The notes below the pieces were generated by a model. The model did not search any database, was not told the origin of the DNA, and saw only the letters and a list, made by a program, of their open reading frames with translations. From assembly GCA_027593235.1 (NCBI GenBank), contig JAQCIU010000061.1, forward strand, positions 1 through 12,122: a stretch of 12,122 nucleotides of DNA, in the 5' to 3' direction. Position 1 is the stretch's first letter, and every line of letters begins with the position of its first letter. This DNA is from Chloroflexota bacterium. Lineage in GTDB: Bacteria > Chloroflexota > Dehalococcoidia > UBA2979. Positions 5,442 to 9,082 of the stretch are shown piece after piece. A program made the position numbers and the translations under genes.

Positions 5442-5694
5442 ACCAAACGAAAGCCCACGCGCTTCGCGGCCCGCGACTCGACGAATGCGAGCAGCACCCT
5501 GACTATCTGGATATCGTGACGATGGAAACCGATTCGAGACGACCTCCGCGCTGCTGGATAGCGATCACTCCGGGTGAGCCGAACCGCCGTACGGCCAAGC
5601 TGGCAGGCCAGCGCGGCGCTGATGCCGCTACTTGCTCGGATCAGCCGGACACACTGCCCCGGCAGTTCCATGCATTCGCCCAGGTGGTTTCGAG

Positions 5695-6954
5695 ATGAAG
5701 ATCGCCGTGATCGGCGCAGGCGTCAGCGGACTGACGGCCGCCTATCTCTTGGACCGTGAACACGACGTTGAGTTGTTCGAGCGCAACACCTACGCGGGCG
5801 GACACGCGAACACGGTGATCGTACCGGGCCTCGATGGCGCGGACGTCCCACTCGATGTCGGCTTCATCGTCTACAACGAGCGGACATATCCCGGGCTGAC
5901 CCGCCTGCTCGCCGAGCTCGATGTCGCCACTCGGCAGAGCGAGATGTCGTTCAGCGTCGCCTGCGAGGAAGACGACTTCGAGTTCAGCAGCCGCGGCATC
6001 CGCGGCTACCTGGCGCAGCCCCGCAACGCGCTGAGGCCATCGCACCTGCGGATGGTCCTCGACCTGTTGCGCTTCCATCGCGACGCGAAGCGCGTGCTAG
6101 CGGAAGACACGATGCACGACGTCAGTTTCGAGGCGTACCTCGACCAACGAGGGTTTGGAGACGCCTTCCGTGAACGGCTGATCGTGCCGTTGATCGCCTC
6201 AACCTGGTCTAACTCGCCGGAGAACATCATCAAGTTCCCGGCGAACTACCTGCTCCGCTTCCTCCGCCAGCACGGCGTGCTCGACCGGAACGCGATCCCG
6301 GAGTGGCGCTGGATCGAGGGCGGCTCGCGCAGCTATGTGAACCGCATCCTCGAGTCGCTGCCCGAGGGGTCCGTCCACCTGGACAGCGAGATCCGCGGGA
6401 TCTCGAGGGCCGGTGGACCCTGCATCGCGTTCGCGAACGGAGAACGGCGTCCGTTCGATGCACTGGTGATCGCCACGCACCCGGACCAGGCGCTCCGCCT
6501 GCTGTCAGATCCCACCGCCGAGGAGCGCGCCGCGCTTGAGGGCTTCACCTACGCGCCGAATCACGTCGTGCTGCACACCGATGACCGGCTGCTGCCGAAG
6601 CGCGAGGCGGCACGCGCCGCCTGGAACTATCAGCGCCACGAGTGCTCAGGCTTCCCGAAGACGCTCACGATGACCTATGACCTGGCACGCCTGCAGCGCC
6701 TGCCCGGCGAGCATCCCTACTGCGTCTCGGTGAACCCTGGCGACCGCGTCGATCCGTCGAAGGTGCTGGCCAAATTCGACTACATGCACCCCGTCTACTC
6801 GATGGACACGCTCGAGGCGCAGCATCGCCTCGAGGCGATCAACGGTAAGCGCGACACCCACTTCGCCGGCGCCTACCTCGGCTACGGTTTCCACGAGGAC
6901 GGCCTGCAGGCTGGCGTGCGCGCCGCGAAGAGATTGAGTGCCTCGACCACCTGA
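5695..6954 (+). CDS. FAD-dependent oxidoreductase (amine oxidase-like; Rv0449c / UfaD-type NAD/FAD-binding family)
   Basis: MKIAVIGAGVSGL dinucleotide motif, GGHANT, DVGFIVYNERTYP, EMSFSV, W..I.GGSRSYV and GAYLGYGFHEDG. AGGTGG RBS before ATG 5695. The last ~6 codons derive from the IS fragment. Confidence 0.88.
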   Translation: MKIAVIGAGVSGLTAAYLLDREHDVELFERNTYAGGHANTVIVPGLDGADVPLDVGFIVYNERTYPGLTRLLAELDVATRQSEMSFSVACEEDDFEFSSRGIRGYLAQPRNALRPSHLRMVLDLLRFHRDAKRVLAEDTMHDVSFEAYLDQRGFGDAFRERLIVPLIASTWSNSPENIIKFPANYLLRFLRQHGVLDRNAIPEWRWIEGGSRSYVNRILESLPEGSVHLDSEIRGISRAGGPCIAFANGERRPFDALVIATHPDQALRLLSDPTAEERAALEGFTYAPNHVVLHTDDRLLPKREAARAAWNYQRHECSGFPKTLTMTYDLARLQRLPGEHPYCVSVNPGDRVDPSKVLAKFDYMHPVYSMDTLEAQHRLEAINGKRDTHFAGAYLGYGFHEDGLQAGVRAAKRLSASTT

Positions 6955-7151
6955 TCGTGCTCAACGAGTCGCAGCTCCGCCGGGTGCTGAGTGAGTACGT
7001 CACCCACTACAACAACGCGCGTCCGCATCGATCATTGGCGCTTGAGCCGCCGGCTGGTCCTCGAGCGCTAACGCCATTCCCGCAGCGGTCTCGCGTCTTT
7101 GGGGCACCGGTCCTCGGCGGCCTCCACCACGATTACGACTGGGCGGCCTGA
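6936..7151 (+). pseudogene. C-terminal remnant of an rve integrase-core (IS481/IS3-like DDE) transposase
   Basis: From 6936 reads ECLDHLIVLNESQLRRVLSEYVTHYNNARPHRSL...PVLGGLHHDYDWAA*, the characteristic end of integrase-core-domain transposases. The N-terminal part is absent. Confidence 0.85.
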
Positions 7152-7153
7152 CC

Positions 7154-7174
7154 GCGGATGGGGTTTTCGCGCCC
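7154..7174 (+). repeat. right terminal inverted repeat of the IS481-like remnant, split by IS110 (last 4 nt CACA at 8647-8650)
   Basis: Removing the IS110 restores GCGGATGGGGTTTTCGCGCCCCACA directly after the transposase stop, ending in ACA as in TGT...ACA-ended elements. The partner left IR is not seen. Confidence 0.65.
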
Positions 7175-7186
7175 TATACGTCGAAG

Positions 7187-7378
7187 CCGGTGGCACTCGG
7201 GTCCGGGTAGCCGGATAGAGTGACGCTGGCCGGCCCCCGCTGGGAGCGCCTTTTCGTGCCTGCCGACCGAACGGCCTCTGTGGGAGATGCGCCCCAGCGG
7301 GGTAGCCGCGGTACGAACGTCCACAAAGATGTCGCGCCGCGAGCGCCAGTATAGGGCTGACGATGTAGCGCGGCCGCC
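7187..7378 (+). ncRNA. IS110 bridge RNA (5' hairpin, target-binding loop, donor-binding loop); ends approximate
   Basis: 5' hairpin 7202-7215. Target loop closed by stem 7235-7249/7289-7302 with inner hairpin 7262-7275, carrying TTTTCGTGCC and CTGTGGG. Donor loop closed by stem 7305-7321/7359-7374 with inner hairpin 7334-7346, carrying CAAAGATGTC and GTATAGG. All four segments match the element junctions. Confidence 0.85.
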
Positions 7379-7412
7379 GGTCGAACCGTTCTCCCCGTGA
7401 GGAAAGGTCGAC

Positions 7413-8627
7413 ATGGACTCGTACCAGCACATGGTTGGCATCGATTGGGGTTCGCAGACGCACCAGGTCTGCCTCGTCTCGCCGCGACGCGCACCCGAGC
7501 AGCGTCAGTTCGCGCATCGTGCGGAGGGCCTCGCTGCACTCGTGGCCTGGTTGACCGAGTCGTGCGGTGACGTCGCGACCGTCGCCGTCGGGATCGAGGT
7601 ACCACACGGCGCGGTGGTCGAGACGCTGCTGGAGCACGGCTTCGCCGTCTACGCCATCAACCCGAAGCAGCTCGATCGCTTTCGTGACCGACACAGCGTG
7701 GCCGGTGCCAAGGACGACCGGCTCGACGCCTTCGTGCTGGCGGACGCGCTACGCACCGACCAGGAGAAGTTCAGACGACTCTCCGTCCCAGACGAGACGA
7801 CGCTGGCGCTGCGTGAGGTCTCGCGCTGCCACGACACGCTGAAGGCGGACCTCAACCGCCTCGCCAATCTCCTGCGCGAGCAGCTGCAGCGCTACTTCCC
7901 GCAGCTTCTCGAGCTGTGTCCGGCCGCCAACGAGCCCTGGCTCTGGGAGCTGCTCGAGGTCGCCGCCGATCCTGCACAGGCGGCGCGGCTGCCGAAACGG
8001 CGAGTGAGTGCCCTGCTCGCGCGACACCGCAAGCGCGCGGTGACCGCAGACGCCGTCCTGGCCGTGCTGCGACGCGAACCGCTGACACTCGCCCCCGGTT
8101 CGCTGGAAGCCGTGCTCTTTCACGTGTCGTCGCTACTGCCGCAGCTGCAGGCCACCCATGTCGAGCATCAACGCTGCCGACGCCGACTGGCGGAGCTGTG
8201 CCGGCAAGCGGGACGCACCGCCGAGATCGTGGACTCGCACCGCGGCGCAGACGTGATCGTCACGGCGAAGCTGCTCGCCGAGGCACCCCAGGCGCTCGCT
8301 GAGCTGGACCTACAGATGCTCCGCATCTTGGCCGGGACCGCGCCCGTCACCAGACAGAGCGGGAAGTCACATCGGGTCGTGATGCGCCGCGCCTGCAACA
8401 CGCGGCTGCGTGATGCAGTCCGGCACTGGGTTCGCTCGAACATGGCCAGCGACCCGTACGGTCGGTCGCTCTACCTGTCGATGCGTGCGCGCGGCCTCCG
8501 TCACGAGCGCGCACTGCGCGGCCTCGCCGACCGGCTGCTTGCCTGTCTCATCGCCACGCTCCGCAACGACGAGCTCTACGACTCGCAGCGACGTGCCCGC
8601 CGTGTCCCGGAAGCGCTCGCCGCTTGA
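7413..8627 (+). CDS. IS110-family transposase (DEDD RuvC-like bridge recombinase)
   Basis: GIDWG (D), GIEVP (E), INPKQL..FR, KDDRLDA (D,D); C-terminal Tnp domain APVTRQSGK with the catalytic Ser and R..CN.RLR. AGGAAAGG RBS. Confidence 0.95.
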   Translation: MDSYQHMVGIDWGSQTHQVCLVSPRRAPEQRQFAHRAEGLAALVAWLTESCGDVATVAVGIEVPHGAVVETLLEHGFAVYAINPKQLDRFRDRHSVAGAKDDRLDAFVLADALRTDQEKFRRLSVPDETTLALREVSRCHDTLKADLNRLANLLREQLQRYFPQLLELCPAANEPWLWELLEVAADPAQAARLPKRRVSALLARHRKRAVTADAVLAVLRREPLTLAPGSLEAVLFHVSSLLPQLQATHVEHQRCRRRLAELCRQAGRTAEIVDSHRGADVIVTAKLLAEAPQALAELDLQMLRILAGTAPVTRQSGKSHRVVMRRACNTRLRDAVRHWVRSNMASDPYGRSLYLSMRARGLRHERALRGLADRLLACLIATLRNDELYDSQRRARRVPEALAA

Positions 8628-8629
8628 CG
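8624..8629 (+). promoter_or_regulatory. -35 box of the IS110 circle-junction promoter (pairs with -10 TATACG at 7175-7180)
   Basis: TTGACG overlaps the transposase stop. Joining the ends through one CC gives TTGACG-AACGACCAAAGATGTCC(17)-TATACG. Confidence 0.75.
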
Positions 8630-8650
8630 AACGACCAAAGATGTCCCACA

Positions 8651-9082
8651 GGCGTTCACTTCCGACCACCCAAGACACGGAACGCACGAAGAACGATCGA
8701 ACTCTCGGCCGCGACGATCGCGCTACTGCGGAGCCATCGGCGAGCACAGCGGGAAGCTCGGTTGAGGCTTGGGCCGTCGTGGAGCGACGGTGGGCTGGTC
8801 TTCCCGTCGCTGGTCGGAACGCCGTGGCTCCCGCGCAACTTCTACCGCGGCTACAAGACGCTGGTGCTCCGGTCCGAGATCGCCAAGCCGGACGGAGTCG
8901 TGTGGCACACCCTGCGGCACACCGCTACGACCCACTGGATCAAAGCTGGAGCTGAACTCCATGTGGTGAGTCGCAGACTCGGCCATGCCTCTGCAGCGTT
9001 CACGATGGATACGTACGGGCACTTGTTGCCCGGCATGCAGCGCCAGGCGGCCGAGGCGTTCGATCATCTGATCGCGACGTAA
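8651..9082 (+). pseudogene. C-terminal fragment of the island's tyrosine integrase
   Basis: GVHFRPPKT...WHTLRHT...VSRRLGHASAAFTMDTYGH retains K, HxxR, H and Y. It lacks the first catalytic Arg and the arm/core-binding domains, and starts immediately after the IS-end ACA. Confidence 0.9.

What the first reader, a model, noticed from the sequence alone, without database searches (positions are those of the whole stretch)
7154..8651. The bridge RNA is programmed against the terminal inverted repeat of another transposon
Seen: deleting the IS110 (leaving one CC) restores GGATGGGGTTTTCGCGCCCCACA|GG just after the stop codon of the rve-type transposase remnant, i.e. an ACA-terminated IS end. The target guides cover the last 15 bp of that end plus one flanking G. 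Inference: this IS110 targets conserved ends of IS481-like elements. That gives it a multi-copy, host-neutral site and splits, probably inactivating, the host element's end 4 bp from its tip. Established precedent exists for the IS1111-group IS4321/IS5075 in Tn21-family IRs; I do not know of this pairing being described. The U in the left guide would accept both CGCGC and CGTGC IR variants.
Basis: partly seen in the sequence, partly recalled or inferred. Interest (0 to 1): 0.8.

Follow-up and report, generated by a model that had tools for sequence, protein, structure and literature searches.

The report
Bridge-RNA transposon aimed at another transposon's end
An RNA-guided IS110 mobile element sits inside the terminal repeat of a different, unrelated insertion sequence, and its guide RNA is spelled to recognise exactly that repeat, a known lifestyle for this family seen here in a new pairing.

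Summary
Bases 7175-8644 are an intact IS110-group element: a 238-nt left end that encodes a bridge RNA, a 404-aa DEDD/Ser recombinase, and a 17-nt right end. A CC core copy lies on each side. The four guide segments match the four flanks where the IS621 model expects them.

Removing the element and one CC restores TTTTCGCGC-CC-CACA. This lies 27 nt after the stop codon of a 5'-truncated rve (DDE) transposase gene, so it is that element's right terminal repeat, split 4 bp from its tip.

- The same site is uninterrupted 28 times in two related genomes, always at IS or MITE ends. It also occurs uninterrupted in metagenome contigs.
- A 91%-identical IS110 copy from a metagenome sits in a variant repeat (TATTCGTGC). 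Its left guide carries the matching U-to-A change.

The host element is IS481-like in layout, but family profiles do not assign it.

The principle is already published for IS4321/IS5075 in Tn21 repeats and IS1383 in IS1384 repeats. This is therefore a new member of a known kind. Activity and inactivation of the host end are inferred, not shown.

The parts
6936..7151 (+). 3' remnant of the host IS transposase gene (rve/DDE family), last ~71 codons plus the TGA stop. The 5' part of the host IS is missing, and the remnant abuts a truncated amine-oxidase ORF.
   Evidence: Pfam rve_3 E 6.6e-07. tblastn finds 6 paralogous C-termini in the genome at 50-56% identity. Contigs of X2, X3 and X4 run on before 6935-6936 with transposase-like sequence, which marks the break.
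7152..7172 (+). Inner part of the host IS right terminal repeat. Its last 9 bases, 7164-7172 (TTTTCGCGC), are the left target (LT).
   Evidence: Aligns with the right ends of paralogues: TTTT-N4-CCCN-ACA at 20-30 nt after the stop codon. Matches the guide at 7251-7259.
7173..7174 (+). Left copy of the CC core.
   Evidence: CC flanks the element on both sides. The register was fixed by free target sites.
7175..8644 (+). IS110-group element proper (1470 bp, TATAC...GATGT).
   Evidence: A 100% self match plus a 94% partial copy on contig C49. Full-length copy L121 with 91% protein identity. No subterminal inverted repeat of 7 bp or more.
7175..7412 (+). Left end (238 nt) encoding the bridge RNA. 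TATACG at 7175-7180 is a -10-like hexamer of the promoter that would form on circularisation.
   Evidence: Fold z-score -3.63. Consensus structure over 39 homologues has 31 pairs, 21 with compensatory changes.
7237..7300 (+). Target-binding loop. Outer stem 7237-7248/7290-7300; inner stem 7262-7265/7271-7275.
   Evidence: Column mapping; covarying stems.
7251..7261 (+). Left target guide UUUUCGUGC-C-U. Positions 7251-7259 pair with the bottom strand of LT, with U7257 opposite the C/T variable base. C7260 and U7261 (wobble) face the core.
   Evidence: L121 has A at the third guide position and A in its flank. Same place in the loop as the flank-matching segment of homologues.
7277..7286 (+). 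Right target guide. CUGUG (7278-7282) pairs with CACAG, and GG (7283-7284) pairs with the core. U7277 can wobble with flanking G8652. A7285 is a one-base handshake guide to the last base of the donor left arm.
   Evidence: One search gives the match, which is not significant alone. Position agrees with homologues. The handshake concept comes from PMC11208158 passages.
7306..7373 (+). Donor-binding loop. Outer stem 7306-7312/7367-7373; inner stem 7334-7337/7343-7346.
7324..7333 (+). Left donor guide CAAAGAUGU-C. It has the same sequence as the right end 8636-8644 plus the first core C.
7349..7357 (+). Right donor guide GUAUA-GG (reverse complement of CC-TATAC), followed by GC. The GC is read as a handshake guide complementary to the last two bases (GC) of the left target.
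   Evidence: In homologues the G-run of this guide equals the C-run of the left junction. Concept.
7413..8627 (+). Recombinase CDS, 404 aa, intact.
   Evidence: PF01548 E 3.9e-35 and PF02371 E 1.5e-07. NF033542 147.5 bits against a cut-off of 140. D11, E62, D102, D105 and S316 are invariant in 15 sequences.
8624..8629 (+). TTGACG, a -35-like hexamer in the right end that overlaps the stop codon. In a circle it would lie 17 nt (8630-8646) before TATACG.
   Evidence: Direct reading. TTGAC occurs at the equivalent place in 28 of 40 unique homologue right ends. A junction promoter is described for the family.
8645..8646 (+). Right copy of the CC core.
8647..8650 (+). CACA, the last 4 bp of the host IS right end, separated from the rest by the insertion. 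Bases 8651-8652 (GG) are flank.
   Evidence: All four near-identical IS110 copies are followed by CACAGG and then diverge. Free sites end at ACA with variable following bases.

Best explanation
An intact IS110-group, bridge-RNA-guided element (7175-8644) has inserted by conservative recombination at a CC core into the right terminal inverted repeat of an rve/DDE insertion sequence with IS481-like layout.

How it is read to work:
- The bridge RNA is encoded in the 238-nt left end.
- Its target-binding loop pairs with TTTTCG(C/T)GC-CC on the bottom strand and with CC-CACAG on the top strand. Together these are the last 15 bp of that repeat plus one flanking G.
- Its donor-binding loop pairs with the element's own joined ends, ...CAAAGATGT-CC-TATAC...

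The terminal repeat of this IS family and of its short MITE derivatives is therefore the element's programmed, multi-copy landing site.

Shown: the anatomy, the four complementarities, the identity of the site as an IS/MITE end, its copy number in relatives, and a natural guide/target co-variation.

Inferred: that the RNA is made from a promoter formed on circularisation, that the element is or was active, and that splitting the repeat 4 bp from its tip disables that end of the host IS.
For: - Family membership. Pfam DEDD_Tnp_IS110 plus Transposase_20. NCBIfam 'IS110 family RNA-guided transposase' scores above its cut-off. Catalytic D11/E62/D102/D105/S316 are invariant.
- Bridge RNA. There are two internal loops between stems that covary in 39 homologues; 21 of 31 pairs show compensatory change.
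- Guide matches. Three of the four were reached by 0 of 200 shuffles.
- The same loop positions carry flank-matching sequence across the clade. The own left flank is perfect in 29 of 46 unique insertions, against 81 of 893 with swapped flanks. The own core plus right flank is perfect in 32 of 46, against 134 of 893.
- The site is an IS end. It lies 27 nt after the stop codon of the rve remnant. It aligns with the right ends of six paralogues. Two of these are complete 1.13-kb copies with inverted repeats.
- Free sites. TTTCGYGCCCCACA occurs 28 times in G002 and G003, controls 0. Of these, 22 are right ends of a 99-bp MITE, 3 follow a transposase stop codon by about 26 nt, and 3 are other end-like repeats. 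Contigs of X2 and X6 carry the uninterrupted end.
- Independent insertions. L121 (91% protein identity) sits in a MITE end reading TATTCGTGC, and its guide reads UAUUCGUGC. The truncated copies C49 and L122 are also followed by CC-CACAGG and then by unrelated DNA.
- Junction promoter. TTGACG, 17 nt, TATACG. TTGAC is kept in 28 of 40 homologue right ends.
Against: - Only two complete insertions (window, L121) and two right junctions are known.
- The MAG holds no free perfect target (0 hits).
- G002 and G003, with 28 free sites, hold no close IS110.
- The C-run makes the register ambiguous from the window alone. A 3-C target would fit the left target guide and right donor guide without wobble.
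- The left donor guide does not pair with the second core base.
- The target-loop handshake guide matches only 1 of 2 bases. The donor-loop handshake GC could also partly pair with the cognate donor, which in IS621 hinders strand exchange.
- The 7-nt right-guide match is not significant alone.
- Rfam gave no hit at E up to 1.
- No joint, circle junction or empty site of this very locus was seen in contigs of four runs.
- None of the 160 more distant homologue loci has an rve gene within 1.5 kb, so IS-end targeting is confined to this sub-lineage.
Confidence: 0.88

Rival explanations
1. Incidental location. The element recognises a short generic motif such as CCCCACAG, and its presence in an IS end is chance or a by-product of such motifs being common in G+C-rich DNA.
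For: The right-guide match alone is not significant. CCCCACAGG occurs 19 times in the MAG, mostly in ordinary DNA. 6 of the 27 family-wide hits to the 14-15-nt pattern lie in a conserved single-copy gene, not in an IS.
Against: The 10-nt left match is unique in the window. Both complete insertions lie in ends of the same IS/MITE family, at the same position and orientation, with a compensating guide change. All 28 full-length free sites in G002 and G003 are IS/MITE ends. The six gene hits lack the first two bases of the left target.
Confidence: 0.04
2. The practical niche is the MITE, not the autonomous IS. The element lives on the abundant 60-125-bp non-autonomous derivatives, much as other IS110 members live on REP sequences, and the hit on a transposase-bearing copy in the window is the exception.
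For: 22 of 28 free sites are ends of a 99-bp MITE. L121's host is a roughly 125-bp MITE-like element with the same left repeat and no transposase.
Against: In the window the split repeat directly follows a transposase stop codon. 3 of 28 free sites do likewise. MITE and IS share the same end, so the RNA cannot tell them apart.
Confidence: 0.4
3. Fossil. The arrangement records an old insertion, and the element no longer moves in this genome.
For: The host IS is itself a 5'-truncated remnant. The only other copy in the MAG is 94% identical and truncated. There is no free perfect target in the MAG, and no joints were seen.
Against: The ORF, catalytic residues, all four guides, the stems and both promoter hexamers are intact. 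Variants are present in metagenome runs of several studies. The MAG is 89.66% complete in 78 contigs, so repeats are likely under-assembled.
Confidence: 0.3

Closest known systems
IS621 and the IS110 group of bridge-RNA-guided recombinases (Durrant et al. 2024, PMC11208160; Hiraizumi et al. 2024, PMC11208158)
   Same: - DEDD plus Ser recombinase, with a long left end and a short right end.
- A left-end RNA with a target-binding and a donor-binding loop.
- Left guides read like the top strand; right guides are its reverse complement.
- A 2-nt core flanks the element, and the right guides carry handshake bases next to the core.
- A promoter is split between the right and left ends.
   Different: - The core is CC rather than CT.
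- The left guides pair with only the first core base (donor) or with the second by wobble (target).
- The natural target is a transposon end rather than a REP sequence.
- Protein identity to IS621 was not measured here.
IS4321/IS5075 (IS1111 group) in the 38-bp terminal repeats of Tn21-family transposons (Partridge and Hall 2003; seen only as a reference title, and mentions in PMC11187229)
   Same: An IS110-family element whose fixed, oriented target lies inside the terminal inverted repeat of another transposon.
   Different: - That element belongs to the IS1111 group, which has subterminal inverted repeats and an RNA in the right end. The window element has no subterminal repeat of 7 bp or more and carries its RNA in the left end.
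- The host is a Tn3-family transposon, not a small IS or MITE.
IS1383 in the inverted repeats of IS1384, Pseudomonas putida H (Muller, Lauf and Herrmann 2001; seen only as a reference title)
   Same: An IS110-family element that uses the inverted repeats of another insertion sequence as its specific integration site.
   Different: - Different host IS and different bacteria.
- Durrant et al. cite it where they describe the subterminal repeats of the IS1111 group, so it probably belongs to that group. I did not read the paper.

Membership tests
IS110 family, IS110 group (bridge-RNA-guided) | [quoted passage not shown] | tested here: met
   PF01548 covers profile 1-155 of 155, E 3.9e-35. PF02371 covers 2-86 of 87, E 1.5e-07. 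D11, E62, D102, D105 and S316 are invariant in 15 sequences.
IS110 family, IS110 group (bridge-RNA-guided) | Curated family model scores above its cut-off | tested here: met
   NF033542 scores 147.5 bits against a cut-off of 140.
IS110 family, IS110 group (bridge-RNA-guided) | Long left end, short right end, no long subterminal inverted repeats | tested here: met
   Left end 238 nt, right end 17 nt. The longest inverted match between the first and last 45 nt is 6 nt.
IS110 family, IS110 group (bridge-RNA-guided) | Left-end RNA with two internal loops closed by conserved stems | tested here: met
   31 consensus pairs, 21 with compensatory change, in 39 homologues. Single-sequence z-score -3.63. 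No Rfam family matched.
IS110 family, IS110 group (bridge-RNA-guided) | Donor loop complementary to the element's own two ends around the core | tested here: met
IS110 family, IS110 group (bridge-RNA-guided) | Target loop complementary to both flanks, and covarying with them | tested here: met
   L121's guide U-to-A goes with a flank T-to-A. Clade test of own against swapped flanks.
IS110 family, IS110 group (bridge-RNA-guided) | Core dinucleotide included in all four pairings | tested here: inconclusive
   Both right guides pair with CC. The left target guide pairs as C plus a U wobble. The left donor guide pairs with the first C only. The same holds in homologues.
IS110 family, IS110 group (bridge-RNA-guided) | Promoter reconstituted across the joined right and left ends | tested here: met
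   By sequence only: TTGACG, 17 nt, TATACG; 28 of 40 homologues keep TTGAC. Transcription was not testable.
IS110 family, IS110 group (bridge-RNA-guided) | Circular intermediate and RNA-dependent recombination | not testable with these tools
   No joints in contigs of 4 runs. Contigs drop rare forms.
IS110-family elements that target terminal repeats of other transposons | Same position and orientation inside the terminal repeat of an unrelated transposon, in independent insertions | tested here: met
   Window and L121 are complete. C49 and L122 supply right junctions only.
IS481 family (host element) | Curated IS481 transposase model scores above its cut-off | tested here: not met
   IS481 96.9 bits against 224; IS3 103.4 against 160. 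Plasmid homologues are named only 'integrase core domain-containing protein'.
IS481 family (host element) | About 1-1.3 kb, a single DDE (rve) ORF without frameshift, terminal repeats ending TGT/ACA (features recalled, not taken from a call) | tested here: met
   C2 copy: 1132 bp, 340-aa ORF, TGTCGGACCACAATATT / AATATTGTGGTCCGACA. C31 copy: 1126 bp. Pfam rve_3 plus HTH_32. No target duplication could be defined.

The most novel reading that the evidence does not exclude
Two transposon families are locked in mutual attack. An IS110 sub-lineage tracks sequence variants of the terminal repeats of an rve IS/MITE family by mutating its guide, which makes it a parasite of a parasite that disables its host's end. 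That same IS/MITE family in turn truncates IS110 copies.

Supporting hints:
- The guide change in L121.
- 3' fragments of related IS110s in relatives, followed by CC-CACGG and CC-GACGG. These tails look like other end variants of the IS family.
- Both truncated IS110 copies (C49, L122) are abutted at the break by a complete small MITE of that family.
Probability: 0.3. Interest if true: 0.65.

Novelty: new member of a known kind. Interest (0 to 1): 0.45.

Why it matters
- It is a clean natural example of bridge-RNA reprogramming. Two copies 91% alike differ at one guide base, and their targets differ at the matching base. A guide U tolerates a C/T polymorphism of the target.
- It extends the habit of landing in another transposon's terminal repeat. 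That habit was documented for the IS1111 group; here it appears in an IS110-group element with a left-end bridge RNA, on a small IS and its MITEs.
- Calibration on free sites shows that in this clade the donor carries only CC between its arms. The extra G of the right donor guide then behaves as a handshake guide to the target. This is useful for annotating the ends of such elements correctly.
- It does not change what is known about the mechanism.

Tried and rejected
- Rfam scan of 6900-8900 at E up to 1: no family.
- Search of the MAG for a free perfect target: 0 hits.
- Search for a left repeat that mirrors the 22-nt right end, up to 5 mismatches, in 27 loci: none. The two ends of this IS/MITE are imperfect repeats, and the left end (CGTGGGGCGGCAATATT...) is not a good target.
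- A 3-C restored target with a 3-C donor. I first preferred this because the left target guide, right target guide and right donor guide then pair without wobble. I rejected it because free sites have one more C in three independent lineages.
- Two calibration patterns found nothing in G099 and G100.
- DNA search of 99 family genomes with the element. Only 3' fragments at 75-77% identity turned up (G084, G054), plus short weak matches. Other IS110 genes there are 29-34% identical.
- tblastn with the host transposase against all 160 homologue loci: 0 hits.
- Reads. Contigs of 4 runs (X2, X3, X4, X6) gave no joints.
- A target-site duplication for the host IS/MITE could not be defined from 28 copies.
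- Of the 27 family-wide pattern hits, 6 (L206, L208, L209, L210, L212, L213) were left unclassified.
Durrant et al. Supplementary Table 1 and Data 2, and the Siddiquee et al. source data, may list natural targets that include IS ends; I could not see them.
- Literature searches found no description of an IS110-group element aimed at IS481-like or MITE repeats. The library lacks most subscription journals.

Rows dropped before counts
- started from 87 loci with a recognisable left-end start and right donor guide. 49 also had a locatable right end, and 46 of those were unique. Its right-boundary rule is off by one base in some rows, the window included.
- One search used 39 of 58 non-redundant left-end pieces (88 candidates). 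Pieces with long insertions or short length were left out.
Full report
What is there

The window is a whole 12,122-bp contig (C9) of a 3.39-Mb genome assembled from a metagenome. That genome has 78 contigs and is 89.66% complete.

Bases 7413-8627 encode a 404-aa protein.
- Pfam finds DEDD_Tnp_IS110 (E 3.9e-35) and Transposase_20 (E 1.5e-07).
- The NCBIfam model 'IS110 family RNA-guided transposase' scores 147.5 bits against a cut-off of 140.
- D11, E62, D102, D105 and S316 are invariant in an alignment of 15 sequences that reaches down to 31% identity. They correspond to the catalytic D11/E60/D102/D105/S241 named for IS621 (passages of PMC11208158).

Upstream lie 238 non-coding bases, and downstream only 17. 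No inverted match longer than 6 nt joins the two termini. This is the layout of the IS110 group, not of the IS1111 group (passages of PMC11208160).

The bridge RNA

The left end folds well (z-score -3.63). I cut 88 homologous left ends to the region of the two loops and reduced them to 58 non-redundant pieces. I aligned the 39 pieces of comparable length. RNAalifold gave 31 pairs, and 21 of them showed compensatory changes.

The structure is two internal loops, each closed by an outer and an inner stem. In the window these are 7237-7300 and 7306-7373.

The four loop strands carry the expected complementarities.
- TTTTCGTGCC (7251-7260) repeats the left flank TTTTCGCGCC (7164-7173).
- CTGTGGG (7278-7284) is the reverse complement of CCCACAG (8645-8651).
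- CAAAGATGTC (7324-7333) repeats the right end (8636-8645).
- GTATAGGG (7349-7356) is the reverse complement of CCCTATAC (7172-7179).

Three of these matches were reached by none of 200 shuffles. The 7-mer CCCACAG was reached by 79 of 200, so it counts only through its position.

Strand logic and loop order are those described for IS621: left guides pair with the bottom strand and right guides with the top strand (section 7 of PMC11208160). Rfam has no matching family.

As a test over the clade, I compared 46 unique homologue insertions with their own flanks and with flanks swapped among loci.
- The best left-end match to the own left flank was perfect in 29 of 46, against 81 of 893 when swapped.
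- The match to the own core plus right flank was perfect in 32 of 46, against 134 of 893 when swapped.

That script searches for the best match anywhere before the donor loop and allows wobble. Its right boundary is off by one in some rows. It is a rough test, not an exact one.

The target is the end of another insertion sequence

Directly left of the element lies the last part of an rve/DDE transposase gene (Pfam rve_3), ending at TGA 7149-7151. Metagenome contigs that carry full versions of this gene leave the window's sequence at 6935/6936, so the host IS has lost its 5' part.

Six paralogous C-termini exist in the genome. After each stop codon, 20-30 nt on, comes a similar sequence: TTTT (or TATT), four bases, CCC, one base, ACA. 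Two of the copies are complete.
- The C2 copy is 1132 bp. The C31 copy is 1126 bp.
- Each has one ORF of about 340 aa and terminal inverted repeats. The C2 repeats read TGTCGGACCACAATATT / AATATTGTGGTCCGACA.

Taking out the IS110 and one CC gives GGGGTTTTCGCGC-CC-CACA, which fits this pattern in sequence and spacing. The insertion therefore splits the host's right end 4 bp from its tip.

Is the site multi-copy, and where does it end?

The MAG has no free perfect copy. In 99 genomes of the same family, the pattern TTCGYGCC-(0 or 1 base)-CACAGG hit 27 times, against 5 hits for the reversed control.
- 15 hits are in G002 and G003 and are repeats.
- 6 lie in one conserved single-copy gene. These lack the first two target bases.
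- 6 were left unclassified.

Without the trailing GG, TTTCGYGCCCCACA occurs 28 times in G002 (7) and G003 (21), with controls 0.
- 22 are the right end of a 99-bp MITE whose left end reads CGTGGGGCGGCAATATT.
- 3 follow a transposase stop codon (...LHH.YRWAA*) by about 26 nt.
- 3 are other end-like repeats.

After ACA the next two bases vary (GG 13, GC 6, CC 3, AC 3, CG 2, AG 1). The host element therefore ends at ACA, and the right guide reaches one base into the flank.

G002 and G003 have no close relative of the IS110.

Independent insertions and co-variation

Scans of public genomes and metagenomes gave 160 homologous loci. Only two of them are close.
- L121 is 91% identical in protein and full length. 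It has the junctions ...AATATTCGTGCC|CTATAC and GATGTCC|CACAGG, and it lies at the right end of a roughly 125-bp MITE-like element that begins with the same left repeat. Its left guide reads UAUUCGUGCC where the window has UUUUCGUGCC, so the guide and the target changed together.
- The guide U at 7257 faces C in the window (a wobble pair with the bottom-strand G). It faces T in L121 and in all 28 free sites.
- Two truncated copies, C49 (94% identical in DNA) and L122 (95% identical in protein), keep only the right junction. In both it reads CC-CACAGG and is followed by unrelated DNA.
- Fragments of more distant relatives (75-77% DNA identity) in G084 and G054 end with the same right end, followed by CC-CACGG, CC-GACGG or CC-TCCGG. 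The first two resemble tails of other end variants of the IS family. Their guides are lost, so this stays a hint.

The register of the core

Both junctions read CCC, so the window alone allows a restored site with 2, 3 or 4 C. A 3-C target with a 3-C donor would let three guides pair without wobble, and I first preferred it. Free sites decide otherwise.
- The window type has 4 C: 14 IS-like 4-C sites against one 3-C site in G002 and G003 under the unbiased pattern. Contigs of X6 continue after 7174 with CACACC, and contigs of X2 agree with this.
- The L082-type homologue has junction runs of 3 and 2 C. Its free sites have 3 C in 7 of 8.
- The L096-type homologue has runs of 4 and 2 C. Its free sites have 4 C in 3 of 3.

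Since recombination is conservative, in all three lineages the donor carries just CC between ...GT and T(G/A)TAC.

The third G of the right donor guide, and the C after it, are then complementary to the last two bases (GC) of the left target. This is the position and role of the handshake guides described for IS621. In homologues the G-run of that guide equals the C-run of the left junction.

Two further details:
- The left donor guide pairs with only the first core base, in the window and throughout the clade.
- The handshake base of the target loop matches 1 of 2 donor bases.

Expression (inferred)

TTGACG (8624-8629, overlapping the stop codon), the 17 bases 8630-8646, and TATACG (7175-7180) would form a sigma-70-type promoter only when the ends are joined. 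TTGAC stands at the equivalent place in 28 of 40 unique homologue right ends. Such a junction promoter is described for the family. No RNA data were examined.

Family of the host element

NCBIfam scores are below both cut-offs (IS3 103 bits against 160, IS481 97 against 224). Plasmid homologues at 38-47% identity are annotated only as 'integrase core domain-containing protein'. 'IS481-like' therefore describes the layout, not a tested membership.

What is known

I found two published cases of the principle, both seen only as titles in the reference list of PMC11208160.
- IS4321/IS5075 in the terminal repeats of Tn21-family transposons.
- IS1383 in the inverted repeats of IS1384.

The first case is also mentioned in PMC11187229. 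Both are cited in connection with the IS1111 group.

Five literature searches found no IS110-group element with a left-end bridge RNA aimed at IS481-like or MITE repeats. The library is incomplete and the supplements are closed.

Verdict

The observation and the interpretation are right in nearly every detail. The thing is a new pairing within a known lifestyle, with a neat natural case of guide reprogramming. Activity, transcription and disabling of the host end remain inferred.

Noticed in passing
L002 1442-1500 (G000:C49, about 91546-91604) and L122 1-86: Both truncated IS110 copies are abutted, exactly at the break, by a complete small MITE of the rve-IS family. In C49 it is 59 bp (CCTGTGGGGTGCCATTA...TAATGGCACCCCACA) and meets IS110 at about nt 955. 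In L122 it is about 50 bp and meets IS110 at about codon 148. This suggests MITE or IS insertion followed by adjacent deletion inside IS110 copies.
   Followed up: partly
window 5632-6954 and 6935/6936: The amine-oxidase ORF matches only profile positions 1-343 of 443 and runs straight into the transposase remnant. A deletion has fused a truncated oxidase gene to the 3' part of the host IS.
   Followed up: no
window 8690-9082: C-terminal fragment of a tyrosine recombinase (Pfam Phage_integrase, profile 66-168 of 172). It begins shortly after the host IS tip, so the host IS may itself have landed in an integrase gene. The area is a pile of mobile-element debris.
   Followed up: no
L203, L204, L205, L207, L211, L214 (G022, G027, G028, G031, G061, G094): A conserved single-copy gene carries TTCGCGCCCCACAGG, 15 of the 17 target bases, in six genomes of the family. 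It is a possible natural off-target; none is occupied.
   Followed up: no
L202 1417-1515 (G003:C1): A 99-bp MITE copy lies inside the 3' end of a transposase gene of the same IS family, cutting it at about residue 330. G003 holds at least 17 copies of this MITE.
   Followed up: partly
L041-L200, left junctions: Across the roughly 45-55% identical clade the left target always ends in C and the donor-loop handshake base is always G. Every target therefore reads C-CC at the crossover. Annotated ends that include a third C are probably one base too long.
   Followed up: partly
window 7166-7298, run X6 record 29: A 523-nt contig matches the window only from 7166 onwards, with 12 differences. Its first 390 nt lie on nothing here. 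It may be another insertion that shares just the left target, but its sequence could not be read.
   Followed up: no
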